From the NCBI GenBank assembly GCA_049999805.1, contig JBNGIO010006281.1:244210-298793 (forward strand): 54,584 nucleotides of DNA, given 5' to 3'. The DNA comes from Folioceros fuciformis (Eukaryota). The translations under genes were made by a program, and so were the position numbers. The notes under the pieces were generated by a model. The model worked only from the letters and a program-made list of their open reading frames with translations, made no database searches and had not been told where the DNA came from. Below are positions 6,301-25,070 of the stretch, piece by piece; within the stretch, counting starts at the first letter, position 1; every line of letters begins with the position of its first letter.

Positions 6301-7189
6301 TTAATTACCTCTCAGAATATATCGATTCTGGGAGCCCCACTTGTTTGGCCAAAATTTTTGGGCTATATCAGGTTTGAAAATACTTCTCCCACTGTCAATA
6401 ATGTGTGGTGCAATTCACAATTTTGTTTGCTGCAGGGCTTCTGAAGCTGCTTTTCTGTTCCTGCAGGTTACAGTGAAGAAAGCAGGCAAAGAAATACAGA
6501 AGATGGATCTTCTCGTGATGGAGAATCTTTTGTATGGGAGGTCTGTATCGCGAATTTATGACCTGAAGGGATCAGTTCGCTCTCGCTATAACGACTCCAA
6601 AGGAAGTAATGCTGTCTTATTGGACCAGAACCTTTTGGAATCAATGCCCACTGCTCCAATCTTTGTTGGCAACAAGGCTAAACGGCTGTTGGAACGCGCT
6701 GTTTGGAATGACACAGCATTTCTTGCGGTATAAGCTCTACCTAGACCTAGTTCAATGAGAGCTACGGGTCTCTTTGTTGTCCCCTTGCTAGCACGTCGAT
6801 CGTGTACTGTGAGAGCTGACCTTGTCTGCTTATTTGTCCCGCAGACTGTAGACGTCATGGACTATTCCCTTTTAGTTGGGATTGATGAAGAACGACAGGA
6901 GTTAGCTATAGGTATTATTGATTTTATACGCCAGTATACGTGGGACAAGCAGCTTGAGACTTGGGTGAAAGCATCAGGGATCCTTGGTGGTCCCAAAAAT
7001 GCTGCACCGACTGTTATTTCACCCAAGCAGTACAAGAAGCGATTCCGCAAAGCTATGTCAACATACTTTTTGATGGTCCCTGACCAGTGTTGGTCTCCCC
7101 CACCTATTATTTCTGTACCCCCGGCCTTGGAGGACAATGGTCGACTATCTCACGATGATTTTGGAGAGGATGGACCAAGACGATCTTAG
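349..7189 (+). CDS. FAB1: 1-phosphatidylinositol-3-phosphate 5-kinase FAB1/PIKfyve (FYVE-containing FAB1A/B type). 11 exons: 349-836, 958-1701, 1851-2004, 2115-2468, 2571-3575, 3688-4019, 4124-4256, 4354-4530, 4662-6371, 6467-6727, 6845-7189
   Basis: FYVE motif (FWMPD..C..C..F...[14 protein letters not shown]); CCT/Cpn60-like domain ([44 protein letters not shown]); Cys-rich region ([22 protein letters not shown]); PIP-kinase domain ([49 protein letters not shown]). All ten introns are GT-AG and keep the frame. Confidence 0.97.
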
Positions 7190-8516
7190 GGAGCAATTTT
7201 AGTCGTCTAGTGTCTGGGTGGACTCGTGTCGGATTCCGTAGCAAGATCCTTGCCACTATCAGCATTATGAATTATGCGGCCATGGCGATAAAAGGTCCTT
7301 GTCAAGACGGATATTCGCACAGGTTTCTCATGGTTTACTGTATTGGTCTATAACCACTTGATTATTCTTAGAGTTCCTATAACTTCTAGTTTGTCAATAT
7401 TAGAATCCTTAGAAAACTATTGTAGAGTGCACCACCTATTTGCTTCCTCAAACAATTAGGGGAGAGCAATATGCAGTTTAGTGTTGAAGTTTATTTGTAA
7501 CAGTCTGCTTTGTCAACTGATGCTTGGGGGCTTGCCTTCGGGATTCTGGCTGCCAGTCTAAAGCCTGGTTGTTGGAATTAAGTTGTAAATTTTGTCTTCT
7601 GCTGTGATCTGTTGAGGTTTAGGATCCGGAGTGATACGTGGTCGGGAGAGGCGTATTGAGGGATGCACTTCTGAGTACCAAAGTAGTTGTATCTGGTCTT
7701 GTGGATTGACTGTCGCATTATTAGTTCTGTATGCTTTGTAAGATCTGTATCCCGGCAACTGGCAGGATTAATCAGCAGCCGGCCTACATCAAGGGAGGCA
7801 AGTGAAGTGGATTGGCTTTACTTACTGTTTGGACCTTTGAGCATAGTTCCCCAGTGGACTGCTATTTGTGAGTGTTTTCAGTTTCTCAATCTAATAGTTC
7901 AGTGATCAGTTCAGTTCAGCGACTTACACTGGTCTACTGATTATCTTTGCTCGCTTGTTCTGAAACAGGTGCCCTGGAGTTATGATATCTTATTTTTTAA
8001 GTCACTCCAAGAAGGGCATTTGGGACATCGATGTCCCCCAAGCAAGTTACAGTTCGCTTTGGTTGCAAGCCNNNNNNNNNNACATCGATGTCCCCCAAGC
8101 AAGTTACAGTTCGCTTTGGTTGCAAGCCTCACTGTACGTCAGAAATTCGGATGTTCCGTTCTATTATCACGGCACCTCCACCTAATTGATTTTTATGGAC
8201 TTTAGGTGGTGCTTTTGACCTGCTTGGTTGTACCATGCCCTAAAAAACTGTACTTGGGGGTTGGACTTATCTTCGTGGCCTCCTTCTATGAGTTTTTTCG
8301 AGATGAGATTTTAGATAACGGCGGTTACTAAATCCCTCAAACTGATAGAATCCCTCCCAAAGTATTGTGGATTTTATCACCTAGCGCAGTTTGCCATGGC
8401 AGTCATCCGTCCGCCAGAATGACGTGGACTAATGGCAATTGTCGAACTTTGTCGGACTAAATACCGGATGTGTGAAACGATGGCAGACTAAATGGCAATT
8501 GTGTTATACGATGTAC

Positions 8517-8580
8517 GATGATGGACCAGATGGCAATGTGCTGAACGATGATGGACCAGATGGCAATGTGCCGAATGATG
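8517..8580. repeat. 30-bp tandem duplication (gatgatggaccagatggcaatgtgc.gaa. x2)
   Basis: Two near-identical copies at 8517 and 8547, at the left edge of the mobile-DNA island. Confidence 0.8.
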
Positions 8581-8734
8581 TCGAAAACAACTGCAAGAGC
8601 AATTGGGTTGAACAAAGATAACTAACAAAGCTCCAGAGATTAGAGGAAATGAAAACAAAAAAAAATGGTGGAATAGAGGAAAGGAAAACTATGAAGCGAA
8701 ATATAATCTCCAACTCAAGTGGCACCACTTAGAG

Positions 8735-8878
8735 AAAAGGTCATCTCCAAGTGGAGAATCGAAGAGGGCAAGTAGTATGTTGTGCACAACAAGGAACATA
8801 AAGTTGCAAGAAAGGTCATCTCTAAGTGGCAAATCTAAGAGGGAAAGTAGTATGTGACAACAAGGAACATAAAAGTTG
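8735..8878. repeat. ~76-bp imperfect tandem duplication
   Basis: aaaggtcatctc.aagtgg...aagaggg.aagtagtatgt...acaacaaggaacataaa(a)gttg occurs at about 8735 and 8811. Confidence 0.75.
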
Positions 8879-9728
8879 GATGTTGGCTTTGTGAGGTGGT
8901 CTATGGCGAACATGCTTCAATACCCATAATGCCTCTCTATGTCTATGTCTAACACTTCATTAAGTGATTTTTTTCCCACCTAGCAACTACTGCCAGTATA
9001 AGCTCCCATGGAAAGAAGATACGCATGCTCAAAGTTGAGTTGTAGACTTGTAATGCATGATCACCAAGTGTTTGGCCAATAAATACTTGCCTTATGGTAG
9101 GAAGGAGAAGCAAGAAGAGCTCTAGAGATTGCTTGAACATGTGTAGGGAGGTTGCAACCTCATGGTCAAGTTGTAGCCCATTAATAATTGCTATGGTAGG
9201 GCCAAGAAGTGTAAAGCATGCAATGGGCATGCAAGTGCAGCGGTTGGGAAGGATTTAGGCAACATTCTCACTATTGGGAAGGATTTAGGCCTTCAAGGAT
9301 TTCCACTTCGTAGATATAAAAATACAATGGGCATGTGGGTGTATCAAGTGGCAGCAATTTCCTTAATCATGTAGAGTGTAGCAATTGAATGAATTAGCTT
9401 TAGTTGTCTAATAGATGTGGTAGGAAATGTGAAGGATATCAACTTTGAAGAATTTACACTACCTAGACGTACAAATAAAAGCGAGGAGATGATGGTATGT
9501 TGAACATGTCTATCTATCCATAATGGATCACCACTAAGCTACTTACAAGAGAACATCATCTGAAATAATTTGGGTCTATCCGCTAACCCTTCTTTCCTAT
9601 TTTTTTCTGCACACGGTTTCCCAACTTCCCACCCTCCTTGATCGCTCAATTTTGTCGTTTCCGAGTTGGGCTCGGCTAGACACATAATACATCATGGGTT
9701 TAAAAGTAGACTTTTTTTGAAGCTAAGA

Positions 9729-12700
9729 TTACAGGCATGCCATGCATGGCATTACCGTCAAACATAAGCATGTATTACAATGATTATAGCCATTTGTGGC
9801 GCGCACATAGGCATGCCAAAGCTCTTTCACATTTGCACTGCTAGCATAGGCCACAATGTACTCTTCATGCGGTGGAGAGTCTTGTTGCTCCGTCATGGGG
9901 ACAATTACTTCGTCTCTCATTGGCGCATGGCCCGGTAACAAACAACGGTGTGGGTGCTCTTCTTCTGTGGACATAGATGATGGGTTGGACGTGAAAGTCT
10001 CTAGCTGCTCTAGGTCCCAGGTCTCATCATCGAAGTGTCGTGGCGTTGGCTTTCCCAAATACTCTATGAGTGCATTATCACATTTCCTTCCCCTTCCTTT
10101 CATCTTCATCTTTGAGTTCTTGGAGGTCCATTGGTGCAGTCTGCCTTCAACCATTTGCATTATGTGCGCCTTTGCTCTCACCAACCTTTCACTGGAAAGC
10201 TCTTGAGCAAAAAAAAGGAAATGCCCTCGTGTGTGAGGCTTCGTCATCAATTCTTCCTCATCAGATGGAAATACTTCATGCCCCGTGATTCTCTGCTCAA
10301 TGAAGATGGTATGTCGTTGGTCTTGGTTAATGGCAATACAATTCCGCCCTTCCATTAATACAGCAAGCACACCACTTCCGCTCCCAGCCCATCCATCCAT
10401 AATCCACTCTCCTCGATCGCTGAATAGCCCACATGAGAGAACCATCAACCCCAAGGGCTTCTGATATGGATTTACAACTCGGCCGTCATTCGACACGTTG
10501 ATTAGTTTTTTGATGCCAACACTATGCTTGATGATCCCAGGCATCTCTCCAATCTCCTTTGCCGCACTGTTGCTCAGTGCACTCCTCTTTCTAATATCTT
10601 CATTCAATGGATGAACCCCAAATCCCACTATCATGTACTTGCAGTTTTCATACAGCCCCTCATCTGCGACGACATTGTCTTTTTCCTAGACCATCGTTTG
10701 TACGCCTCCCTTTGCACACCACTTCCGTAAGCTGTCTCTCACATCCTGCATCTGATCTAGTCCATGCATGCACACAACTTTGAATGTTTGTCACTCAATG
10801 ACTTTGAAAAATCCTTCCTTTACCTTCTCCAGGTCATCTGCTGTAAACTCCTTGTCCCATGGTTCTGCATAGTTTCCTCTTGGCATATCCAATATGAGCA
10901 ACTTGTACTCTCGCTTACTCAGGTATGCAGCCATTTCTCTGAGATCACCATTTATCACCTGATACTTCATTTTTTGTTTACTGCTAGGAACTTGGAAGGT
11001 TGAGAGTTTTGCGTCATTGTCCTCGTCCGCTAATTCTCATTGCAAATCCTCCACTCGCTTCCAATTTTGAGCGGCATTGAAGTGCTCTTTGAAAGAATCC
11101 GGAATGACTTTCTCCTTGTATTCCTCTGCCTGGTGGAGTGTCTGCAAAGAGTACCGACAATGCATGGAAGATTAGGACCTAGCGCACCCAAATGCGCACC
11201 CATCACATGCAATGGCACATTCGTGTCCAAATACTTACAATGTGATCGAAAATAGGCTGAAACTTTGCGATGTCTTCAGGTGTCGAGTGCTTTGGATATT
11301 CCATCTCAACTTTAACAAATGAATTGCATTGTAAACCTGAACAGAACGTAGTCTAAATGATGTTTAATTTTTTGGCTTTCGTTATCCATGTTCTCATCCC
11401 ACTCACCATCAACTCCCCTTGAACGACTTTCTTTAGCGCGGACATCATGATCTGATCCCTTGCCTCTCCTAAAGGCATACCTTGAAACACCCTTCATGTA
11501 GAAGCGTGCATTGGTTTTATTATAAGGTTCGAGTCTCTGACTACCGGCTCAGCATCCGCATTCCCTCNNNNNNNNNNNNNNNNNNNNNNNNNNNNNNNNN
11601 NNNNNNNNNNNNNNNNNNNNNNNNNNNNNNNNNNNNNNNNNNNNNNNNNNNNNNNNNNNNNNNNNNNTCATGTAGAAGCGTGCATTGGTTTTATTATAAG
11701 GTTCGAGTCTCTGACTACCGGCTCAGCATCCGCATTCCCTCTCCTCGTTTTCCCCTGTTTGCTCGCCTTCTTCCTACTACCTTGTTCTGGTAGCTCTCCC
11801 CTTTCCCACAAACTGAAGACCTCATCCACCTTCTGCCAAACATGCGGAGGCACACTTGTGATACATAGCACTCGTGTTTTTTGGTCAAGCAGACGTTGTT
11901 TTTCTTCTTTATCTTTGGCATCCCCGATGACTCCTAACATCCTGTACAAATCATACTTCCATGTCATTGTGATTGAAGTACCTTGCTTGCCTGCAATCTT
12001 CAGCTCATCGTGAATGTATCGGACTTGTTCAATGAAAGACATCTTCTTGCGGAAATCTGCCTTCACATTATGGTTAGTTGCCAAACACATTTCCTTTTGC
12101 GTATATGTGCTTCCATATATTGGTAGTGAGAGTTCTCCGGGTCCTGTGCATATAGCCGCTAGAATGCATAAAAACTATGGTTCTCGCCCAATACTCCCAT
12201 GGTATACTTCTATTTCTTCAGTTTCTCGCGGTCAAAATCAACCACAGTCGGGCACTCCTTAGGGTTGATCATGCACAGCAAGGGCAAAACGCCCTCCTGT
12301 ACTAGCCCCTTCTTTGTCTCCCATAGCAAATGCTTTCCCCAAGACTCATCGACTCGCCTTATTTGCGCATCTTTGGTTAGATAATCTGCTAAGCGTAGCC
12401 TGTTTATGGCGACCATGTCTGTATGTGGAATACATCGTTTGCGATGCGCAGACTCCCTCACGAGATTGATAGGATCAATGTGTTGCAAGGCCCTACCAAC
12501 TCTATCGCTATCATTCAGCACAACCTTCGTTTTCACTCTGCTTGTTGGATCCTCTTCCATATTGCCTTGTTTTTTTTTCCTGCTGGCCTTCACAGTCGTT
12601 GTTCCTATATGGATGATCGGGGAGTCCATGACAATTAGCTGAAGGTCGTCATCGCTTTCAGACACTGACTCCAACTTCTCTTCTTCACCCAACCTGTCAC

Positions 12701-13178
12701 GCAAGATTGCCTGTGTTTTTCTCCCTAACACATTGAGGCTATGCAATAATGTCTGTGCCCTGGCTTTCTTTGAAATGTTCGAAGATCGCTTTGATGCGCC
12801 TTCGCTAGCCATCTCTTGAAACACGTTGTCGTCTTCGTTCTCTTCGCTCTAATGGTGTTTGGGATCTTCCTCTACAGGTTCCTCCTCATCAGGTTGCTCC
12901 CCATTATCAGCATCATCGTATACTTCCTCCGCTTCACCCCTAAAATCTCTTCATGTATCAATGTCCATGGATGCTCCAAGACAGACTTCATCTTCTCTAG
13001 CTGCATACGACGGTTCATGAGAACTTGTTGCAAACTGATTGCACCAAACATCGAGGTTATCTCCCGCGTTTTGTCTTGCTTCCTCGGCCTTGTCTTCCAT
13101 CTTCGTCATAATGAGTTCGATAAGGATCTCTTTTCTTGATGAACCTAAGTCCTGCGTCAAATGTCTGCAAGGCAACAT
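9729..13178 (-). pseudogene. Intron-containing pseudogene: acidic N-terminus, ParB/Srx-like domain and beta-class amino (N4-cytosine/N6-adenine) DNA methyltransferase
   Basis: Minus-strand translation gives, in order: QIRRVDESW and GVLGENHS (ParB/Srx-like GxH motif, ~12177-12197); YKLLILDMPRGNYAEPWD (motif IV, DPPY-like, 10875-10889); MV*EK (IxWxK-like); NPYQKPLGLM (HPxQKP-like, ~10455-10472); FSDRGEWIMDGWAGSGSGVLAVLMEGRNCIAINQD (motif I FxGxG SAM-binding, 10371-10397). Several stops and frameshifts. Putative GT-AG introns at 11337-11480 and 11142-11238. Confidence 0.8.
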
Positions 13179-13599
13179 GGGAAAAGGATTAGAGGATGGC
13201 GGTTGATTTCGGCTTTCATTCTTAGCCTATGGCCCAGTCTTGAACATGATTGCAATAAATGGCCGATGGCAGCCACGGGACGGGGACTCAGCATCCATCC
13301 TGCATGGCGCAGCTAGGGTCGCACTAAAGGCCATCCATCTTGTGTGGTGCACTGAAGTGCGCACCTCTAGGTCTCTCAACCAGGCCCTGGCACGCCCATG
13401 GGCACGCTAGGGCCAAAACAACCTGCCTGACGCACACTTGGGCGAGCCTGGGCTTGAACAACCTGCTCGGCGCGCCTAGGGGCTTGCTAGGGGTTGTATA
13501 GAGTGCCCGGCATGCCAAGGGGCACGCCATGGGCTATTCAGAGTGCCTAGCGCGCCTAGGGGCGCTCCTGTGCAAGAACATCTTCATTTCCAATGGCCA

Positions 13600-16500
13600 A
13601 GCCAGTGTCCCTACATTGTCGATGTCGCCCTCCTTGGGACATTGTCTGCTGCTGGACAAGCACCCTTGTAATGCAAAACTTGAATCAAAAGCTCACCTTG
13701 TCCGTTGCCAATGCGTTTTCAAACCCGGTTCGCAAGTCCGCATCGTTGCATTGGCGAGGTATCAGCTTGTCAGCGGACAACTTAAGGAGGTGATGTACAT
13801 TGGACTTGCGCTGAAAGAACTTTAGCTTCATAAGACAGATTAGCATTTTCACTCTTACTTGGGCCCGAACCTTGTACTTCCATACCCAAAGGATGTAACC
13901 CACAACGGTTTTTTAGGTCTTAGAAGCATCAAGGTAGCCATTCACCCAAAGAACCGGGATGGGATCAACGTTGGGCAAGGTTTAATCAGCCCCTTCTTTG
14001 TGGACACACCATTCCTTGTCCAAGAGATCCTAATTCAGGCAAGGCAACATATATGTCTTGCAATGCCTTTTTCTCTTTCCCTATGAATGGCTTTTCCAAG
14101 TCCATTCCTAGTATAATGCCCAGCTCCTCCAGAAAGATCGTCGTCGGGTCCATCTCCAAGGCTTCCCCACCTAGAGTTTCTCATCCCCTGCTCTCGTGCC
14201 GGCCTTGGCTCCCAGAAACAAGCATAAAGCTTCCTTCCCTTGTTGACGACGTCGTCTTATGCCCAGCTTCAGTGTCTTTTGATACTCTTTTTGGTTTGGA
14301 CTTTCCCATACTGCTTTCTTGTCATAGTTGGGCCTCTTGTGCAATCCTCCTTTTCCCATAGCTCTTGGCCTCCCCTTTGGGGTCCACTCTCTTCCGCTTT
14401 TCATCTGCAGGCACCGCCTGAACGTCAACAACATTGGTGTGCTTCGCTCGAACTTGGCATGTCGACTGCGACATTTCTGGACAAAACAATAGCAACCATG
14501 ATTTAGGAAGGTAGTTTTGTATCCATATCACAATTAGGGGTATCTAAGAAGGTTCCCAAACTTGCTATTTCGGTTTCTACCCAATGAAAAAAAGAAAATC
14601 CTATAGGCCTAAACTGCCTGCTTGGTTGCTCACATAGATACCATGATATGGTCAGCCCTATACGAAATCGTCCCGAGTTGTAAGCAATCCAGCATGGACC
14701 ACGTCAAAATTTGACTGTAAGCTATCATGTGATTCTGGTACACTCTACTACGTTGCTCCTTGAAACCACAAAAAAAACCGAACTCTTACTCAGATGAGAG
14801 CGTGCCCAGCGACGATGATTATCTGAATATGCCCAGCAACAGACACTCAGCACATGTGTAGACGCCCAAGGAAGGCCAACTCTTGCAAGTTTCTTAATCG
14901 CGACCAACTCCTGCAGGTTGCTTAAACACGGTCAGGAGCACAACGGGCAGCAACAACAAGGAACCTGAAGTAGTGATGACAGGAAGTGCTCACGACAGCA
15001 GTACAACAAGCATGAGATCGGTTGAGCTGAAGGACCTCGTCGTGCGTCAAAAAAGGCCGTCAACGAGAGTGCACCCTGTCTCCTTCCTCGCTGATCCTTT
15101 GCTTTGCAACTATGCCAACCGGCCGCCGCCGACCCAATCCTCCTGCCCAATGCTAGCTTCCGCTGTAGGTCTTAAGCGTTTTGACACTACCTCCCACCCA
15201 AGCTTCCACTTGCGTTGCCCAATTCTGCCTTGCCTAATAGCCGCACCTCCCGATTCCACCCTACCGGATATGGTTAACGCTGCCTCCGCCTTGGCTTCTA
15301 CCCACTTGAGACAAGATGCCGGATTCTAGCTCTCGAAGGTCGACGTTGATGCAGGAAATTGTGGACAATGTTGATGGCAGACACCATGCCCTCAACCTCT
15401 CCATTTACAAGTCCTCTTCTGGCGCACACAACTTTTGTCTCCACGTCTTCCAACACTAGAAGACATTGAGGTTTCTGGGCTGACCTAAATAGTACTGATT
15501 TAAGACAGGATGTGATTTTTTGAGTTGAGCTAGTTCTAAATTAGGGTTAGACTAACCCTAGGTTAAATTTTCTAACTGTAGTTAGCCGAGATTAAATGCT
15601 GGTTTTTGCCTGTTGCAAACGGTGAGCCGGTATCAATTATGACACCTGTTTGATACAAATGTACTTAATTAAACAATGCTATTCAAGGAAGGTTCCATTT
15701 CAAACTAATCGCGAAAGCGGAGTGACTAATATTTCCAGCGGCTGCTTCCAAGGGCACCTACAAGATTGAAGCCATCTTCTCTGTGCCTGGTGGTGGCATG
15801 AGCTTATGCGTGAGCAACTTTAACGAAGCGCAGCCACCACTTGTGTTCAAGGTGACAAGAGCTAGTAGCGCTATGGATGGATGGTAGGACGCAACACATG
15901 AGAAGGATGCCCAAAGGATTGGGCATTGTACAGGGCTCATTGAGAAGATATGTAGTGAATACAATGCCGGAGCTTCCAGCAATCAGAAAATCTAGATCAA
16001 TGCACAATTTGGTGCATACAGCAAGACGAGAAAGTGGACAGCAATTGGGCTCCAGTGCAGAAGATGGAGAAGAACGTGACAACGAAACAACAATAAGTGA
16101 CTGATGGTGGTTGAATAGTACGAACAATTGTGCCTACAGCAATAGCCGTCTGGTGGGTTGTAACTTCCACTGCCAACTTGGCATTATAAGCCATTTGAAG
16201 CGCGCTCTGATAAATTGGGTGTGGCCACAGTTGAACTAAGCTTTGCCTGATGCAGCTCATAGAGGTCCAATGCCTCATCTGCTAGGTAGTTTGACAACTA
16301 CTCAAACATATATTGATGGTTGTATGTAGTGCCATGCTTGAATTTTACCTGACTAATGACAACATTGATGTGTAGCATGAAGTCTCGCAATGTTTGTGTC
16401 CCAGGTCTACTAGAAAACCTCTCCTGCTTGTAGGGTGCTCCTCCCTCCATGGATCCAGTATTTGACTCCTCAAAGAGGTCTGTCTGACCCTGAGCTCCTA

Positions 16501-17036
16501 CTCTAGCATTAGTAATAGAAGGACAACTAAGCACCCTGCTCTGACTTCCCAAAGGTGTTGTTGGAACAGGTGGGGCCGCCCAGTTTGCAAAAGGAGACTA
16601 GCTTCCTACCTGCGGTTGATCTTCAGCACCCGGTTCAGCTTGGTCTACTTGACCTTCCTCCTCCCAAAACGGATGTTGTCGGTGCAAAGCTCTCCTCCTC
16701 CTTGCTCGTCCTTGCACAGGTGTAACCCTGGCAGGCCTAGCGGAGACATCTCTAGATGGGCTACCGTGGGCTCCCCTCAACCTCTTTGGGTTGCATAACC
16801 CATGAGGCGGTTCACTCACAAACGCCCAATCACCAGCAAGAGGTGGCATGCAAGCACACCTATTAGAGAACCCTAGATGCCTTCCCAACACAAAAAAGAA
16901 AGCACAACCACTCTAGATCTGATTATGCTACAACATCTACAATTCCCTATGCCCTAGGATTTAGGAACATAGTACAACAAAACTCCAGCTCACTTGTGAA
17001 GATTTCAGCACACGACCTCACTCATACATGATACCA
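13600..17036 (-). mobile_element. Highly degraded LTR-retrotransposon remnants (gag-like, protease-like and RNase H-like scraps)
   Basis: PBS-like TGGTATCA preceded by TTTTCA-aga on the minus strand at 17029-17036. Gag-like YKQERFSSRPGTQTLRDF...LSNYLADEALDLYE (16250-16440), protease-like GIILGMDL (~14100-14125) and RNase H-like HHLLKLSADKLIPRQ (~13750-13800). Weak motif-level evidence only; no matching LTR pair seen. Confidence 0.45.
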
Positions 17037-18349
17037 TCTTGAAAATTGAAGCAAGTGCAGTAGGAGCAAAACCCTAACTGATGTCCGAACCTTCCAGGTG
17101 CAATCAATCCTTGAAAAGAGCTCCAAATCGCACAAAAGCATATCATTCGACTTGCCTTGTTGGGATGAACAGTTTGGTACAAGAATCAATAGAAATAGAC
17201 TTGTAATTCGGCCGCTATGAGCCCTGGTAGGCTAGAAACCCTGAACTTGTTGGGTTAGCGTTGCAGCTGGTGGCTGGCGAGACAGGGAAGATGGCGCCTT
17301 GCTGTAGGGTTGTAACCACATCCTCTAAGCCCAATCATCCTCAGATCTCACAGACATTCATTGAAATGACATGAAACCAACTCACATGCGGTTTCTTAGA
17401 CGTTGTAGCAATGCCACGATCGATGGGCTACTGTTGCTGGGTAGCTTGGAGTCGCGTAAGTCACACCGGAGCTGCCAATGTACATAGAATATCCACGAGC
17501 TTTACAACACTCTTGCCCCAAAACGGGCTGGAAATTACAAACACAAAGCAAGCGAAATCCTTGGTGCGGGGTCAGGCACTCTCCCTCGGTGCAATTTCGA
17601 CAACTGCCTTCTGCGACGCCCTTCCCAAGATTTAGCACTAGCCACCATGGTTGATGTCAAAGACGTTTTTAAGTATTAGTAGCAATTATGTCACGGTTGG
17701 GCTCACACTCTTGGTGTGAGCCCATGAGCATCCTGCAGGGCAGCTCTTGAGTGAGCTGTGCTACTTTCCATTTAATGTTTTGTTGATATTTCGGCAGCAT
17801 TTTGTTAATCTAAATCAAGAAACAAAGGCTAAAATGTTCTAGCACTTTGGTGTCGTGACAAGCATATGGACCATGAGGTGTGGTTGCGGGCTCTCTGTGC
17901 ATCGAGGTTCAAGTTGGCTTCTCCCTAACCGTCTACTGTAATGAAAGTCTATGGGTTTGTCATTCATGTGCCTAGCAAGATGGGTGGAGGGCGCCGGCAT
18001 GTCGGCGCCCTCCACCCGTCTAGATGTGTAGTATGCCATTGATTGCTGGGGGTGACAAACCAACATCTAGTCCTACTGAGGGGAACCGTAATGTGGTCTA
18101 TGCACGGTGGGGAACTGTCGGTTGCATGCGGTCTTGAGTGCCGGCAGGCCGGCACCCCGAAGTCTTTTATAGTTGAATGGTACTTACACCACTCATGTGA
18201 GTTGCAACTAACGCAACCGATAAGCCGACGCCCTAGAATGCTATGCATTGATGGCACCAGCATTTCGAGGTCTTTGCCAGCTGCTTGTTCTGTGTTTCCT
18301 TCCCGACAACATCAGCTGTGGGCTACACCAAGGGGCCGTGTTCAATTCA

Positions 18350-20130
18350 CGAACGGCATCGTGAGAAAATCATTCTGGAACTCACTATTGAAAGGTGGTC
18401 ATGAAAGGGGACTAGTGTCATGGAATACCTGCTTGGTATGCCTAAGACGATTAACTTGGGTGTGCGGAAGTGTATCAAGACACTTTTAACAAGCATCGAG
18501 TGAAACTCATGGATGAGAGGAAAAACTGAACAAGCACATGTCCAAAGGGTATACAGAGCCACACAAGTATATGTTGTTGTGCATTGATGGCATGGACCAG
18601 AAGAAGACTGCATTCCCGCACATTCTTAGATGGCCAAGGGAATTGAAGGAGGACAGCAAAATTATTGTACACGTCGTCAGGTGTATGGTGCACAACCACA
18701 AAATTCACGGCAAGGACATACCTATATTATGCCAATATACGGAACGACGCCAATTTGACTATATGCATTATTCAGGATATCATTCACACATATGAGGGTC
18801 TACTTTCACAGGTTTTATACATTCAGCTCGACAATACTTGTTGCGAGAACAAAAACCAGTTGCTATTCACTTATTTGAATATGCTCGTTGAGCTTCAAGT
18901 GTTTGTCAAAGTGAAGGGTGTATTTTTTCTTGTAGGCCATAAACATGACCAAGTAGACCAAATGTTCTTATGTTTCTCCAAGCATTTGAGGCACAAAGAG
19001 GTGAAGACACTACCACAAACTCATGTCAATTCTATAGGGCTCATATACTCCGAATCCAGAGATTAAGCACTTGGTTGAAGTTCCGGATTTTAGAGGGTTT
19101 GTATGGCTAGTGGTCCAAGGCGTAGGTCAACACATGTATAGGGCTGCGGTGAAGAAGCTCAACAATCTATTATATCAGCATCAATTTAAAATAACTCGGG
19201 AGGACAAACCTGGCAAAGGATATGTCACTGTAACTTGGAGCAAGCAATACGCCACCTCCCTTCTTTGGGAACTTGAGGAAGGACTAGAGTACCTTACGCA
19301 TGTTCCGAAGACATTCATTAAACCGACAACTCTACTATCACTGTAGCCAAAGGATAGAAAGGGGCAGGAAGGGTAGATGACTGCGAGAGAAAGTGTTCCT
19401 AAGACATGTGAAGAAAGGGTTGTTAAAACTAGCTACATACTTAACTAATGCATAAAACGTGTGGTGGCAAGACTTCTGGCAAGATCAAGAGGAAATTGCT
19501 GATATTGTGGACAACAATATAAGTTTGGTACTGACAACCCCCTAGAGAAAGCGCTTCTCCATGACCTGCCGGAGAGTCACATGTATATAGGTGCATACCA
19601 AAGTATTGGCAGACGTGAGGCTGAGATTTCACGGATGAATGGAGATGTCTCGCAGATACAGAAAGGGATGGTCATAATCACCCTACGTGAGGGTGATATT
19701 CATAATTGGGAGTTTTGGGTGGCAAAAGTTGTGAGCACACATTTCACACGTGGGGAGCCATACCTGTTGGTGCATTGGTGGCAAACAGATCATATGGATG
19801 CATATGAGGGCAAGTATGTCAGAGAGTACTTGTTGCACGGAAGGGATGCAAATTTCGAGGACACATGTGGGAAGAAGGGCAAGCCCTAGTGTGCTCCAAA
19901 TGTTCAGAAGCTGTACATCAAGAAAACCATAATTGTGTACCACAGATTCCACCTGATGTTATGCAAGCACCTATATGCAGCAGACACAAAGATTATAAAG
20001 GAGAAATTAGCCTTGCTACAAACGCACATCGAACCGGGCTCCCCTTCAAACAGGGGCACAGAAGCACTAGTGGAACAATTTCATGATATTGATGAAGAAG
20101 AACACGTACACTCCGATGACATGGGCGTTT
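18350..20130 (+). mobile_element. Sola-like DDD transposase pseudogene with a C-terminal PWWP/Tudor-like module
   Basis: Fragments in shifting frames: YMLLCIDGMDQKKTAFPH (18538 ORF); YIQLDNTCCENKNQ...FFLVGHKHDQVDQMF (18665 ORF; D..DN.xxENKN..GHxHxxxDQxF pattern); HQFKI (19071 ORF); IQKGMVII...FWVAKVV...LLVHWW...YEGKY (19581 ORF). Broken by stops and frameshifts. Confidence 0.75.
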
Positions 20131-20459
20131 AAATGGAATACACTTATAGTGCCATATTTGGCCGAAAAGCAGACCGTACAATGCCAATGTACCATCCCCG
20201 TAGGGATGCAACTCCCATACCCACCACTGGAGCTAATGGATATAAAGAGTAGCGTGATAATAGGTTGTTGAGGAACACATGCAGAGAACTTTGTGTGTGC
20301 ATCATACCCTTCTTTGGGGTTTTGAGTGGAGTATATGCATATCATGGAAAAAGACAATATCCTTTGGATTTTAGTCAGGTATCATGTGATGACTGAGATA
20401 GATGAAGAGTGCAGGCATGTATGATTTTACATGTAAACTTTATTTTTTGATACCCGACT

Positions 20460-21545
20460 ATGGCTATTGACAAAAAGGAATTCGCTAAGGCTTATGAGGT
20501 GAGTACTCGTTACTGTTGTCCCTCATCAGAACATACCTGTTCACTGAAATGTCAGAGTTGGATAACAGGACTGATGTTTAGATGTGGCATGCCGACGCCC
20601 TCCGTAGTTCTCCATTTTCTAGAGACTATGATTCACCTGACTGCACACGGTTTGGCACCCAATATCTAGAACTAAACCATACTCGTGTACTCCTTGTTTG
20701 AGAAAAAGGTGATTATTAGAATTACTTACCGATAGGAAGGATGAGTTGGGATGGGTGTTGTTTAGGCATAATTTGGCAATGAAAGACCTTTGTACCATAT
20801 TCCGATCCTTCAAAAATTATGCTGTTTTTGGCGTAAATTCGAAAAGTGCTTGAACAACCAATGGACAAGTACTTGAGTGACAAGGACAAGGATTGGTGGC
20901 AAGCATTTTGGAGGTCTCAAGAAGACATAGCACACAGAATCATCCGCGGAGACGATTGTCAATTGCGAAATCCATGGGTGTGGTACAACCGAGAAGATAT
21001 TCCTTCTCATTAGGTGGCTGAAAGACATTCTATTCCTCTAGAGCAAGAGCCTCCGGAACGGAATCAACTTGATGGCAAACATATGTACCTTGGCAACTAT
21101 AGACCTACTAGCACTGCAGACATGGAGGGAGGAAGGCTTCACGGGAATGTAGATAAAATTCAAAAAGGGGACATGATCGTTGTGCCTTCCGAGGGCGATG
21201 ACTAAAACCGGCCATTCTGGAAGCCGAAGTGGAAGAGGTTGACTTCATGTCAGCGGAGCAAACACTTCTAATACAGTGGTGGGTGACAGAGAATACCAAT
21301 GCATTTGAAGGCAGATATCTTTCAGAGGAAATATGTCCATCCAAGCAATGAGGAAACAACGCCAAACGTATGCGTCATCGCAACGCCATGACCTTAGACC
21401 GGATTTTTATTTCCAAAACGTATATATTGGCATATGGATTCTCTTTAACTTGTGACAGCACTTTAAAGGTACAGACTTCAGAGCTGATCAAGACAAAGTT
21501 ATATGAGTTGCACAAACGACGACTAACAGGATCACGTTCATGACA
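20460..21545 (+). pseudogene. Second element gene (degenerate), paralogous to the C-terminal part of the transposase
   Basis: ATG at 20460 (MAIDKKEFAKAYE) followed by a GTGAGT donor. DWWQAFW (~20891), HMYLGNYRP, LHGNVDKIQKGDMIVV, RPFW, IQWWVTENTNAFEGRY and ELIKTKLYEL align by eye with WWQDFW, MYIGAYQS, MNGDVSQIQKGMVII, EFW, VHWWQTDHMDAYEGKY and KIIKEKLALL at 19460-20020. Confidence 0.6.
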
Positions 21546-21672
21546 GTGACGGAAGCCAAGGCATTTAGCTGCACAAGGACATGCATGCGCAGAAATGCCC
21601 CGACGATGAAGCGGACGCAACAATTGAAGTAGCAAGAGCCATCGAGGACGTAGTAGGATGTANNNNNNNNNN

Positions 21673-21792
21673 GTAGATGTATTTTGATGCCTTCCACCAA
21701 ATATAGGGGTAGATGTATTCTAACCCCTTCCACTAAATATAGGCGTAGACGTATTCTGACACCTTCCACCAAATACAGGGTAGACGTATTCT
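21673..21792. repeat. 36-bp minisatellite (gtaga(t/c)gtatt.t.a..ccttccac.aaata.agg.), at least 3.3 copies, running into an N gap
   Basis: Units start at 21673, 21709, 21745 and 21780, at the right edge of the mobile island. Confidence 0.85.
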
Positions 21793-22568
21793 CAATGTCT
21801 CCATCATAGCACCACTTGAAGTTGCTAATAATATTGTAAAGAGCACTAGACATTATCTAGAGAGTTGAATTCAAGAGAAATAAAGTGCTTGAGAATATAA
21901 TAGAGTCTAAAATATAAAATAAATGATGGTATATATATATATCCTCAAATATACACAAACCTAGACTCCCAAGAACAAAAATACACAATGAAAACAGAAA
22001 TGCTGAATAAGACTTCATTGGCGAAAAGAGGGAGCCGTGAAATATAACAGGTGGAGTTTAACTAAGTCCTAAAGTTAAGAGAAAAGATTGCCTTTAACAC
22101 ATATAACAAGTCAGATCGGGACCAGGGCCCGCTACGGCTCCGTCCGGTACTTTTACGGACGGAGGCAAAACTCAATGTGAGTTGGGCTTAAGACAGTCCG
22201 CGCACGTCGCACTTCGGCTCCGTCTCGTGCCCACTATAACCGGGACTTTTACGCACGGAGGCCCAACTCAAAGCGAGTAGGCTTTGAATGACGTTCTGAA
22301 TAACGAAGTTGCAAAATAGTATAATACCATAGTGTGGAAATGAAAACTGGGTGTCGAAAAACACGAGGTAGCACGGAGTGCAGCTAGGTAGGCCTGCCTG
22401 TGGGCAACTGTCCAACGACAGTTCCTGCAATAGCTCTTGTGATGACAGTGTTTGCTGGTTACGTTGGCGGTTTAACAGGCAGAAGGTTAGAGTTACCAAG
22501 CTCCTGACTTCCTACGAATGCAGTGCGAGGAGTTTCTTTGGTGAGGCAACGTCAACAAGCCAGCTTGC

Positions 22569-25070
22569 ATGGATTCGCAGCGGATTGCTTCGAATATGCA
22601 CATGGGTTGTTGGGCGCCTACCTCCAAAGCAGGATACGACAGTTGCTTAACAACTGAATCAGTATGCAAACTGTGTCAGCAGGGGCAGGTGACTGAGGCT
22701 GTCGAGGCTCTTGGAGCTCTCGTACTCACAGAATATCGCGTTACCAAATCTCTTATTTACACTGTCCTGAAAGAAAGCGTGGCAAGGAAGGACCTTGCTC
22801 TTTCTCGCCGTGTGCATGCCATGACTGTGATGACAGGGTATGAATCGGACACGTTCCTGTGCAACCACCTACTGCGCATGTATGCTTCTCATGCCAGGTT
22901 GCAAGAAGCCATGAATGTGTTCACTGTGGTTGAGAAACCAGATGCCTTCACATGGTCTGCCGTAATCTCTGCGCATGTTCAACATGGACAGGACAAGCAG
23001 GCCGTGCAACTGTATCAACGAATGCGCAGGTCACGAGTGAAGGCAGATGGCCATGTGTTTGTCGCAGCCCTTCAGGCTTGTGCAAGAGGAGCAGACCTGG
23101 AATCTGGGCAGCAGGTGCATGCTGATGTGTTGGCTAGTGGCGTAAAACCTAGTTTGTTTGTTTGCAGCTGCCTGGTGGACATGTATGCGAAGTGTGGCAG
23201 CTTGGATGATGCTCGAGGAGTTTTTGATAGCCTTCCTTCCAAAGATGCGGTGACGTGGAATGCTATGGTGGCAGGATATTCCCAGCATGGTCGAGGTCAG
23301 GAAGCCCTTCGTCTTTATGATTGTATGCAGACGGAAGGCATCGTCGCAGCCAGTTCAGTGACGTTCGTATGTCTGTTGCAGGCATGTGCAAGTGTGGGCA
23401 TCTCGGCGTTGGAGAAGGGGAGGCAGCTGCATGCACAAATTAGACAGCGAGGGTTTCAGGCTGATGTGTTTGTGGCCAACAGCTTGGTAACTATGTATGC
23501 CAAGTGTGGCAGCCTAGAGGATGCTCGGGCCGTATTTGATGGACTGGGTCAGAAGAATGTGGTGACGTGGAATGCCATGATGGCTGGATACTCCCAGCGG
23601 GGCATGGGGCAGGAAGCCCTTCGTCTTTACAGGGCTATGCAAACAGAAAGCATCGTGGCTCTCGATTCTGTAACATTTGTGTGCCTCTTGCAGGCCTGTG
23701 CAAGTCTGGGCAGCCCAGCTTTGGAGAATGGGAGGCAGCTTCATACGCAAATTCGGAAACGAGAACTTCAGGCTGATGTGTTTGTAGCCAACAGCTTGGT
23801 GAACATGTATTCAAAATGTGGCAGCCTAGAAGATGCTCAGCGTGTGTTTGACGAACTCGGTGAAAAGAATACTGTCACATGGAGTGCCCTGATAGCAGGA
23901 TACTCCCAGCAGGGCATGGGGCAGCAAGCCCTCCGTCTGTACAGGGCCATGCAGGACGAGGGTCTTGTTACACCCAATGCTGTTACTTTTGCGTGCCTCC
24001 TCCAGGCATGTGCAAACGTGGGTGCCTCGGCTGTGGAGAGTGGGAGGGAGTTGCATGCACAAATTAGAGAACGAGAACTTGATGCGGATGTGTTCCTTGC
24101 CAGCAGTTTGGTAAACATGTATGCAAAATGCGGCAGCCTAGAGGATGCTGAAAGAGTGTTTGACGGCCTTGGTAGCAAGAATGTGGTCACGTGGAGTGCC
24201 ATGATAGCAGGATATTTGCAGCAAGGTCTGCCGCAGAAAGCCCTTGGCCTTTACAGGGTAATGCAAGAAGAAGGTGTTGTTGCACCCAACTCCGTGACAT
24301 TTTTGTGCCTTCTTCAGGCATGTGCAGGTGTGGGAGATTTGGATGTGGGGAGGCAACTCCATGCACAGATCAAACAGCAAGGGCTTCAAGGTGACGTGCT
24401 TCTTGGCGGTAGTTTGGTGAACATGTATGGAAACTGTGGTAGCATGGTCGAAGCGCAGCAAGCTTTCGAGGCCATGTCCGAGAGAGACGTTGTTGCCTGG
24501 AACGCGCTAATTTCCGGATACAGCCGTCAAGGAGAAAGTGAGGTTGTGTTTCAGTTGGTTACCAGAATGGGAGACGCTGGGATACAGCCTGACATCATCA
24601 CCTTCCTCAGTATATTAACTGTCTGCAGCCACACAGGTCTAGTAAACCAGGGGCAGGAGTACTTCGAAGCCATGAGCAGACAGTATGGCCTCAGTCCCAA
24701 GGTGGAGCACTACACATGCATGGTGGATATCCTGGGCCGTGCAGGCCGACTACATGACGCACTAATTATGGCCAGGACGATGCCTGTGGCCCCCGATGTG
24801 GCAGTTTGGCACACCCTATTAGGCGCTTGTCGGAAGTGGAGCAATGTGGAGGTCGGCCGAGTTGCCTTCGATGAGGCGGTGAAATTAGACAAGGCAGACG
24901 CTGCGGCGTATTTGTTGATGTTGAATATATATACGGGTGCCCAGATGTGGGGGCAGGCAGCAGAGTTGGAAGCAATGCGGAAAGGCAATAGGGCTCGGAA
25001 GCAGCCAGGCCGGAGCTGGTGGACAGATTCACACGGTGTGCAGCATGGTTTTTTCTCCTGGGGTTGCTGA
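22569..25070 (+). CDS. PLS-class pentatricopeptide repeat protein with E1/E2 and a truncated DYW:WW-type PG box (organellar RNA-editing factor)
   Basis: Intronless 833-aa ORF with repeated S/P/L motifs (LVNMYAKCGSLEDA, VVTWNAM.AGYSQ, SVTFVCLLQACA), S2 (HYTCMVDILGRAGRL), E1 (PDVAVWHTLLGACRKW) and E2 (AAYLLMLNIY). It ends RKQPGRSWWTDSHGVQHGF; no HxE/CxxC deaminase motifs follow. Confidence 0.95.
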   Translation: MDSQRIASNMHMGCWAPTSKAGYDSCLTTESVCKLCQQGQVTEAVEALGALVLTEYRVTKSLIYTVLKESVARKDLALSRRVHAMTVMTGYESDTFLCNHLLRMYASHARLQEAMNVFTVVEKPDAFTWSAVISAHVQHGQDKQAVQLYQRMRRSRVKADGHVFVAALQACARGADLESGQQVHADVLASGVKPSLFVCSCLVDMYAKCGSLDDARGVFDSLPSKDAVTWNAMVAGYSQHGRGQEALRLYDCMQTEGIVAASSVTFVCLLQACASVGISALEKGRQLHAQIRQRGFQADVFVANSLVTMYAKCGSLEDARAVFDGLGQKNVVTWNAMMAGYSQRGMGQEALRLYRAMQTESIVALDSVTFVCLLQACASLGSPALENGRQLHTQIRKRELQADVFVANSLVNMYSKCGSLEDAQRVFDELGEKNTVTWSALIAGYSQQGMGQQALRLYRAMQDEGLVTPNAVTFACLLQACANVGASAVESGRELHAQIRERELDADVFLASSLVNMYAKCGSLEDAERVFDGLGSKNVVTWSAMIAGYLQQGLPQKALGLYRVMQEEGVVAPNSVTFLCLLQACAGVGDLDVGRQLHAQIKQQGLQGDVLLGGSLVNMYGNCGSMVEAQQAFEAMSERDVVAWNALISGYSRQGESEVVFQLVTRMGDAGIQPDIITFLSILTVCSHTGLVNQGQEYFEAMSRQYGLSPKVEHYTCMVDILGRAGRLHDALIMARTMPVAPDVAVWHTLLGACRKWSNVEVGRVAFDEAVKLDKADAAAYLLMLNIYTGAQMWGQAAELEAMRKGNRARKQPGRSWWTDSHGVQHGFFSWGC

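What the first reader, a model, noticed from the sequence alone, without database searches (positions are those of the whole stretch)
8400..21800. Candidate methyltransferase-carrying DNA transposon (divergent MTase gene, Sola-like transposase and reader-domain gene)
Seen: the ParB-MTase gene (minus strand) and the Sola-like transposase plus second ORF (plus strand) point away from each other. They lie in one gene-free island bounded by tandem repeats on both sides (8517-8878 and 21673-21792) and are similarly decayed. The DNA between them is largely retroelement debris that could be a later nested insertion. Established: some transposon classes carry DNA-modifying cargo (TET/JBP in fungal KDZ elements, N6A MTases in DIRS elements). 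Inference: this may be one large element pairing a transposase, a chromatin-reader-like domain and its own DNA-marking enzyme. I could not find terminal inverted repeats or a target-site duplication by eye, so chance adjacency of unrelated elements remains possible.
Basis: inference. Interest (0 to 1): 0.8.

Follow-up and report, generated by a model that had tools for sequence, protein, structure and literature searches.

The report
Decayed methyltransferase-carrying Sola-type DNA transposon
The gene-free island holds the broken remains of a DNA transposon type that carries its own ParB-linked DNA methyltransferase gene, a kind described in a brown alga in 2025 and seen here in plant-type nuclear DNA.

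Summary
The two genes are real. A ParB-like + beta-class amino-methyltransferase pseudogene lies on the minus strand (about 9.7-13.2 kb). A DUF7869 transposase fragment lies on the plus strand (18.3-20.1 kb).

- The "reader-domain ORF" is the C-terminal, BAH-like domain of the transposase, not a separate gene.
- A second, 5'-truncated transposase fragment lies at 20.84-21.53 kb.
- None of 65 ORFs in the middle hit a retroelement family.

In two unrelated eukaryotic contigs (L063, L065), the only ParB-like gene of an 8-Mb and a 16-Mb bin lies 2.4-3.1 kb from, and divergent to, the only strong DUF7869 locus. In L065 both genes sit inside 45-nt terminal inverted repeats. In L063 they sit inside 26-nt repeats with a 4-bp TTAG duplication. 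Arrays of palindromes flank the genes in both.

A 2025 paper (PMC12477816) describes the same design in Ectocarpus Sola1-1_Ec32.

The window copy has no detectable termini, lacks the transposase N-terminal third, and carries R where the methyltransferase catalytic motif needs an aromatic residue.

Verdict: a decayed new member of a known kind.

The parts
8515..8878 (.). Two short tandem arrays (30 bp x2.2 at 8515-8580; two 75-bp-spaced copies at 8736-8878) on the 3' side of the MTase gene. They may be a subterminal array by analogy with L063/L065, but membership is unproven.
   Evidence: Depth here is at single-copy level, 11.9-12.6. No sequence is shared with the right-hand array.
9729..13226 (-). 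ParB-like + beta-class amino-methyltransferase pseudogene. The MTase domain lies at about 11150-10233, the ParB-like module at about 12500-11755, and an acidic/basic N-terminal region runs up to about 13226.
   Evidence: It has 2 in-frame stops in the MTase domain and at least 1 frame change in the ParB part. Motif I is DGWAGSGSG. The motif IV position reads DMPRG.
13386..13585 (.). Decayed array of 5 x 40-bp units with partly palindromic cores, just 5' of the MTase gene. It is a candidate ParB or transposase docking array.
   Evidence: units 60-70% identical; TRF score 97. Comparable 41-43-bp palindrome arrays occur in L005 and L063.
13586..18300 (.). Unclassified, moderately repeated DNA between the two genes. 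It includes a 44-bp palindrome at 17978-18021.
   Evidence: Depth is 27-127. 0 of 65 ORFs have a retroelement Pfam hit. The palindrome is I1. The N-terminal transposase profile finds nothing here.
18301..20084 (+). DUF7869 (Sola-type) transposase pseudogene, copy A. The catalytic core lies at 18517-19343 and the BAH-like C-terminal domain at 19530-20084. The N-terminal part of about 290-350 aa is absent.
   Evidence: There are two frame changes and at least 5 in-frame stops.
20840..21534 (+). Second, 5'-truncated transposase fragment (copy B). Only the C-terminal region is present, 39-52% identical in protein to copy A.
21673..21792 (.). 36-bp x3.4 tandem repeat just 3' of copy B, next to an N gap.

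Best explanation
The island is the silent, decayed relic of a large cut-and-paste DNA transposon of the DUF7869 (Sola-1-type) kind. On the strand opposite its transposase gene, this kind carries an accessory gene for a ParB-like DNA-binding module fused to a beta-class amino (N6-adenine or N4-cytosine) DNA methyltransferase.

In intact relatives the layout is: TIR, array of palindromes, ParB-MTase gene (minus), transposase gene (plus), array of palindromes, TIR.

Inferred mechanism:
- The transposase, whose C-terminal BAH-like barrel may read chromatin, moves the element.
- The ParB-like module docks on the element's own palindrome arrays.
- That docking brings the methyltransferase to mark the element's DNA.

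Shown here: the homology, the fold of the ParB-like module (modelled on a metagenome relative), the gene order in relatives, and TIR/TSD in relatives. Inferred: docking, self-marking, and that the two window genes came in one insertion.

In this window both genes are pseudogenes. The transposase has lost its N-terminal third, perhaps to a nested insertion. A second transposase fragment follows, and the ends are no longer recognisable.
For: - The same divergent pair occurs in L063 and L065, which share no DNA similarity beyond 52 bp.
- In G001 (8 Mb) and G002 (16 Mb) the ParB-like profile finds 1 match each. That match lies 2.4-3.1 kb from the only strong DUF7869 locus. By my estimate, chance adjacency within 10 kb is about 1e-3 or less per genome.
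- L065 has 45-nt TIRs enclosing both genes: score 51 against shuffles with mean 23.3, sd 2.2, max 29. The palindrome TTGAAATTTCAA forms arrays at both ends.
- L063 has 26-nt TIRs (23 of 26 matching) and a TTAG duplication. Arrays of 42-43 bp with a shared palindrome lie on both sides.
- PMC12477816 (passages) describes Sola1-1_Ec32 with a 1104-aa ParB-like + DNA MTase gene on the opposite strand.
- The ParB/Srx fold: a model of the conserved N-terminal module built on a metagenome relative (L011) has pLDDT 77. All 13 Foldseek hits at E<=1e-3 are ParB or Noc.
- Both parts of the island are moderately repeated at similar levels, 35-75 and 72-103 against 11-16 in the flanks. The laid paralogous contigs are 80-87% identical.
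- A 40-bp array lies 5' of the MTase gene.
Against: - No TIR or TSD is detectable in the window. Scores were 20 against a shuffle mean of 19.7, and 27 against 24.2 with the top hit an N-run artefact. No AACAC/TSD pair was found.
- The transposase N-terminal profile finds nothing upstream of 18517.
- Depth is uneven and dips to 20 at 12812-13462.
- A second transposase fragment shows that the site has collected more than one piece.
- Only 2 of 15 DUF7869 loci carry the ParB-like gene. Seven of the 15 have at least 3 kb on the relevant side.
- Only 1 of 60 MTase loci (L055) holds a DUF7869 gene, and there it lies tail-to-tail. In L055 a conserved MTase-side end abuts a truncated transposase, which looks like a nested insertion.
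- Six MTase loci with 2.4-4.8 kb flanks show no transposase.
- In the tree the window's transposase lies outside the L063/L065 clade.
- The L063 TIR score was exceeded by the highest of 100 shuffles (max 41).
- Motif IV reads D-M-P-R-G, not (D/N/S)PP(Y/F/W/H). MTase domains in L063/L065 also look degenerate, so self-methylation may not occur.
Confidence: 0.68

Rival explanations
1. Nest of separate insertions. A self-contained or non-autonomous 'palindrome array + ParB-MTase gene' unit (about 9.7-13.6 kb) landed near two unrelated, truncated DUF7869 fragments. The two window genes therefore never moved together, even though the families are linked elsewhere.
For: - In metagenome contigs the ParB-MTase gene is a multi-copy unit of 3-4.5 kb (68-99% identity). 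It has palindrome arrays upstream and no transposase within 1.4-4.8 kb.
- L010 is a 5'-truncated copy beside a dehydrogenase gene.
- L055, L008 and L009 share an MTase-side end, after which the flanks differ.
- The window shows a depth dip at 12812-13462, a missing transposase N-terminus, two transposase fragments and no termini.
Against: - The window has the same orientation and order as L063 and L065, where both genes lie inside one TIR pair.
- Chance adjacency of these two particular families would be a coincidence on top of their shown linkage.
- The flanks of the MTase-only contigs are shorter than the 5-kb spacing seen in the window.
Confidence: 0.25
2. Host genes in decay. The MTase and the transposase-like gene are former domesticated host genes, not parts of a mobile element.
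For: G001 and G002 hold single copies of the pair. No RNA or function data were available either way.
Against: - Both window genes are pseudogenes with stops and frame changes.
- Both are multi-copy in the runs laid.
- Relatives carry TIRs and a TSD.
- The published homologous arrangement is a transposon family.
Confidence: 0.03

Closest known systems
Sola1-1_Ec32 of Ectocarpus (Genome Biol 2025, PMC12477816; passages read)
   Same: A large DNA transposon with a ParB-like + DNA methyltransferase (4mC or 6mA) gene transcribed on the strand opposite the transposase. It is proposed to bind and mark its own DNA.
   Different: This window is plant-type nuclear DNA and the copy is decayed, without ends. 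Palindrome arrays and a BAH-like transposase tail do not appear in the passages I read.
Plavaka (EnSpm/CACTA) elements of red algae with PAG2 and PAG3 (bioRxiv 10.1101/2025.02.11.637652; section read)
   Same: Giant DNA transposons carrying DNA-modifying accessory genes. A ParB-domain protein sits next to tandem arrays of inverted repeats. The cassette hops between transposon superfamilies.
   Different: There the MTase is fused to SET and the ParB domain to a 2OG oxygenase, as two separate genes, and the transposase is CACTA-type. Here ParB and MTase are one gene and the transposase is DUF7869.
KDZ transposons with TET/JBP cargo in fungi (recalled; cited in PMC12477816 and PMC4738411)
   Same: The principle of a DNA transposon carrying a DNA-modification enzyme.
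   Different: A different transposase superfamily and a different enzyme (dioxygenase).
Bdelloid rotifer N4CMT (PMC8885841; passages read)
   Same: A beta-class N6_N4_Mtase of bacterial origin working in eukaryotic chromatin, coupled to a reader domain.
   Different: N4CMT is a single-copy host gene fused to a chromodomain and has the SPPY-type motif.
Bacterial and phage ParB-methyltransferase fusions (for example L020 ORF 3536-4891)
   Same: The same domain order, with ParB_N then N6_N4_Mtase.
   Different: The prokaryotic proteins are shorter (about 450 aa), pass the Pfam thresholds and keep canonical motifs. The eukaryotic family has long extra regions and introns.

Membership tests
Sola-1-type transposon with ParB-MTase accessory gene | Accessory ParB-like + DNA MTase gene on the strand opposite the transposase | tested here: met
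   Window: MTase on the minus strand, transposase on the plus strand. The same holds in L063 and L065. The feature is described in PMC12477816.
Sola-1-type transposon with ParB-MTase accessory gene | Transposase belongs to the Sola1 superfamily | not testable with these tools
   Only Pfam DUF7869 could be scored (108 bits). No Sola reference profile or sequence was at hand. Indirect support: many bivalve relatives, and Sola elements are reported in bivalves (PMC10294476).
Sola-1-type transposon with ParB-MTase accessory gene | Terminal inverted repeats | tested here: not met
   Window: nothing above shuffles. Relatives: L065 45 nt, L063 26 nt.
Sola-1-type transposon with ParB-MTase accessory gene | 4-bp target-site duplication (the trait is recalled from memory, not from a call) | tested here: inconclusive
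   Window: no ends, so no TSD. L063: TTAG on both sides. L065: none seen.
N6_N4_Mtase (PF01555, beta-class amino-MTase) | AdoMet-binding motif I (FxGxG type) and a Pfam match | tested here: inconclusive
   DGWAGSGSG is present. The Pfam score of 23.7-24.1 bits lies below the 26.7 cut-off. 18 of 22 relatives scanned score above the cut-off. A profile of relatives matches CcrM, DpnA, MboIIA and RsrI.
N6_N4_Mtase (PF01555, beta-class amino-MTase) | Catalytic motif IV (D/N/S)-P-P-(Y/F/W/H) | tested here: not met
   The window reads D-M-P-R-G. In alignment A1 the column pattern is D-x-P-[Y,H,R,S]-G, and 4 of 10 rows (window, P0002-P0004) have R.
ParB/Srx N-terminal domain | ParB/sulfiredoxin fold with the GxxR-type box | tested here: met
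   Model of a metagenome relative (first row L011) aligned with 10 other relatives (pLDDT 77): all 13 Foldseek hits at E<=1e-3 are ParB or Noc, and sulfiredoxin gives TMt 0.56-0.65. Pfam and PDB sequence searches miss it. The window copy is homologous (E 1e-15; 41% over 56 aa), but its box is broken by a stop.
BAH domain (chromatin reader) | BAH beta-barrel fold | tested here: inconclusive
   Model pLDDT 71. Foldseek gave no hit at E<=1e-3. VIA-align best was Z 7.0 to DNMT1 BAH1 (rmsd 3.0, 80 aligned), and by my count of the row titles 14 of the top 25 rows are BAH domains. The tool notes that Z under 8 can be a common arrangement.
Retroelement (claimed for the middle) | RT, RNase H, integrase, gag or LTR pair | tested here: not met
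   0 of 65 ORFs hit. No long direct repeats were found.

The most novel reading that the evidence does not exclude
ParB-MTase-carrying DUF7869/Sola-type transposons reach into land-plant lineages. They share a conserved design in which arrays of family-specific palindromes, spaced about 40-43 bp apart, are the cognate docking sites of the element's own ParB module. The MTase (or, in the R-variant clade that includes this window, a non-catalytic or re-targeted version) would then act only on the element. That would be a self-addressed epigenetic mark, possibly read by the BAH-like tail of the transposase.
Probability: 0.3. Interest if true: 0.6.

Novelty: new member of a known kind. Interest (0 to 1): 0.4.

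Why it matters
Transposons that write a mark on their own DNA are a recent idea, described in the 2025 brown- and red-alga papers. How they work is untested.

This window adds a plant-type example, though a dead one. More usefully, the follow-up turned up two apparently complete relatives (L063, L065). They have ends, a target duplication in L063, both genes, and matched palindrome arrays on both sides. That gives concrete DNA sites and proteins for a binding and methylation test.

The window copy itself has no likely function today.

Tried and rejected
- **Whole genome:** none is held, so copies in this species could not be collected. An empty-site comparison was not possible.
- **RNA:** The look-up of sequencing runs listed no RNA holder. 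Run X4, guessed to be RNA, covered the FAB1 and PPR genes but nothing in 8255-21925. This counts as no evidence either way.
- **First protein search:** the search with the DUF7869 ORF among longer proteins found none. A two-row alignment then found 79.
- **Pfam:** no ParB, BAH or chromo hit on the window ORFs even at E<=1.
- **PDB profile search:** recognised only the MTase part.
- **Viral contigs:** 1 weak MTase locus and no transposase.
- **Earlier findings of this scan:** nothing for this genome or these sequences. The word search gave only prokaryotic and phage cases.
- **Tree of 83 transposase cores:** it could not test whether MTase-linked transposases form one clade, because the context of 80 rows is unknown.
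- **Contig ends at 9775:** I first read the exact contig ends at 9775 as a repeat boundary. I dropped this because copies only 80-87% alike rarely share 31-mers.
- **L055 pair:** I considered the tail-to-tail pair as a designed arrangement. I rejected this because the transposase there is cut where a conserved MTase-side end stops.
- **Literature:** no paper holds 'DUF7869'. None of the papers read describes a land-plant case; the listed papers not opened were not checked. Supplements of PMC12477816 and of the bioRxiv preprint were not read and may hold element sequences or further hosts.
Full report
**What is in the window**

The island lies between a PIP5K/FAB1-type exon (6734-7189) and a PPR-E gene (22545-25070). 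No whole genome is held for it. Six N gaps exist. Those at 8072 and 11568 are flanked by exact 47- and 74-nt duplicates, which points to an assembly artefact.

Contigs of two DNA runs that hold the stretch were laid at 80% likeness. They give summed depths of 11-16 over 5000-9556 and over 21926-22576, and 20-127 between 9557 and 21925. The MTase part reaches 35-75, the stretch 16067-18019 reaches 107-127, and the transposase part 72-103, with a dip to 20 at 12812-13462. The paralogous contigs shown are 80-87% identical. So the island is moderately repeated DNA.

**The methyltransferase gene**

- On the minus strand, one frame from 11036 to 10293 carries two in-frame stops.
- A scan of 1.84 billion representatives found 100 relatives at E<=1e-3, 11 at E<=1e-10 and none at E<=1e-30. 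The best is 35% identical. Named ones include Ginkgo biloba Gb_37443 and a Chara braunii protein.
- All 22 relatives scanned match N6_N4_Mtase (18 of them above Pfam's own cut-off). The window itself scores 24 bits, below the 26.7 cut-off.
- Relatives map to 11150-10233. The N-terminal regions of three of them map to 12287-11755, with a frame change near 12.1 kb.
- The N-terminal module is not recognised by Pfam or by a PDB sequence profile. A structure model of this module from a metagenome relative, built on 11 relatives (pLDDT 77), has ParB or Noc as all 13 Foldseek hits at E<=1e-3, and sulfiredoxin at TMt 0.56-0.65.
- A profile of that module, built without the window, hits ORF 11671-12174(-) at E 1e-15.
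- 'ParB-MTase' is therefore correct, and the gene is a pseudogene.
- The motif IV position reads D-M-P-R-G. In the family alignment, 4 of 10 rows have R where an aromatic residue is expected.

**The transposase**

- ORF 18647-19066 hits DUF7869 at 108 bits.
- An alignment with a metagenome relative retrieved 79 longer proteins. They come from bivalves, a sea urchin, Chara, Tetraselmis, a dinoflagellate and many unnamed metagenome sources.
- Full-length relatives of 905-937 aa map collinearly from 18301/18535 to 20084 across three frames.
- Their C-terminal residues (about 660-890) match both 19462-20084 and a second place, 20840-21534.
- A profile of the N-terminal 345 columns of five full-length relatives finds nothing upstream of 18517.
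- The C-terminal domain model (pLDDT 71) has no Foldseek hit at E<=1e-3. VIA-align gives Z 7.0 to DNMT1 BAH1, and by my count of the row titles 14 of the top 25 rows are BAH domains. That level can be a common arrangement. 'Reader-like' is a fair lead, not a result.

**The middle and the ends**

- None of 65 ORFs of at least 45 aa in 13000-18400 hits a retroelement family.
- No long direct or inverted repeats bound the island.
- Local alignments of the two edges score at the level of shuffles.
- A decayed array of five 40-bp units with partly palindromic cores lies at 13386-13585, just 5' of the MTase gene.

**Is the pair linked elsewhere?**

A scan of metagenome contigs with the MTase alignment gave 59 loci.

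- Many are low-GC, intron-bearing, multi-copy copies of the whole ParB-MTase gene, 68-99% identical over 3-4.5 kb.
- Several have arrays of palindromes upstream of the gene: L005 (41 bp x9), L011, L014, L017, L019, L025 and L036.
- Only L055 of these 59 loci plus the one viral-contig locus (60 in all) holds a DUF7869 gene.
- In L055 the two genes lie tail-to-tail. A block shared with L008 and L009 ends exactly where the truncated transposase begins, which looks like a nested insertion.

At that point I favoured independent elements.

The reverse scan changed that. Searching with a DUF7869 alignment in genome contigs gave 15 loci. Two of them, L063 and L065, carry a ParB-like gene on the opposite strand, upstream of the transposase, exactly as in the window.

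- They share only 52 bp of DNA similarity.
- L065 is eukaryotic DNA, with a Helitron next door.
- In the 8-Mb and 16-Mb bins behind them, the ParB-like profile finds one match each, 2.4-3.1 kb from the only strong DUF7869 locus.
- In L065, 45-nt inverted repeats (82% complementary) enclose both genes: score 51 against shuffles 23.3+-2.2, max 29. Arrays of the palindrome TTGAAATTTCAA lie inside both ends. I saw no TSD.
- In L063, 26-nt inverted repeats (23 of 26 matching) enclose both genes. Their score of 37 compares with 24.4+-2.5, and the highest of 100 shuffles (41) exceeded it. They are flanked by TTAG on both sides. Arrays of 42-43 bp with a shared palindrome lie on both sides.
- The ends of L055, L063 and L065 share AACAC.

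**Literature**

[quoted passage not shown] It says similar proteins are known from green and red algal transposons. The Bostrychia preprint (section read) describes MTase-SET and ParB-2OG accessory genes, and inverted-repeat arrays beside the ParB gene, in Plavaka and other elements. The kind is therefore published. In the searches, none of the papers I read describes a land-plant case.

**Verdict**

The window most likely holds a dead copy, or pieces of copies, of such an element. That the two window genes came in as one insertion is inferred (about two in three). The main rival is a nest of separate pieces. Whether the MTase ever marked DNA is open, because motif IV is non-canonical here and the domains in L063 and L065 look degenerate.

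Noticed in passing
window 9775-21650 (run X3): Run X3 looks like a bisulfite-type library: C>T 610 and G>A 692 places, against under 100 for every other change. All 25 X3-only conversions shown in the island are at CHH sites, against a background of 72% CHH. This suggests CG and CHG cytosines are methylated here. Only 25 of more than 4000 rows were visible.
   Followed up: partly
L005:671-1046, L014:1-192, L017:5-104, L019:207-424, L025:5-385, L036:1078-1434: Arrays of family-specific palindromes lie just upstream of ParB-MTase genes in metagenome contigs that show no transposase. The palindrome differs between gene families, as expected for cognate docking sites.
   Followed up: partly
L055:625-678, L008:3070-3123, L009:3257-3298: A conserved 40-54-nt block with a small hairpin (TTGCCG...CGGCAA) ends at ...GCGTGTT, after which the flanks differ. 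It is probably the MTase-side terminus of that element family.
   Followed up: partly
L068:5957-13249, L069:7079-12874, L070:1052-6568: Very long uninterrupted ORFs (1839-2431 aa) hold a DUF7869 core in GC-rich contigs filed under bacterial MAGs. They are a different, fused form of this transposase family.
   Followed up: no
window 22577-24500: The PPR repeat region draws summed contig depth of 3600-5500, against 11-16 for single-copy DNA. The PPR family in this genome is therefore very large.
   Followed up: no
window 17978-18021: A 44-bp near-perfect palindrome (22-nt arms, 91% complementary, no spacer) lies about 300 bp upstream of the point where transposase homology starts. It may mark a junction.
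   Followed up: no
window 8072-8081 and 11568-11667: N gaps are flanked by exact 47- and 74-nt duplicates. The contig ends probably overlap, so the true sequence is likely shorter.
   Followed up: no
P0012 (Chara braunii, 1825 aa): This gene model holds two MTase-like regions plus the ParB-like region. It may be two fused element copies.
   Followed up: no
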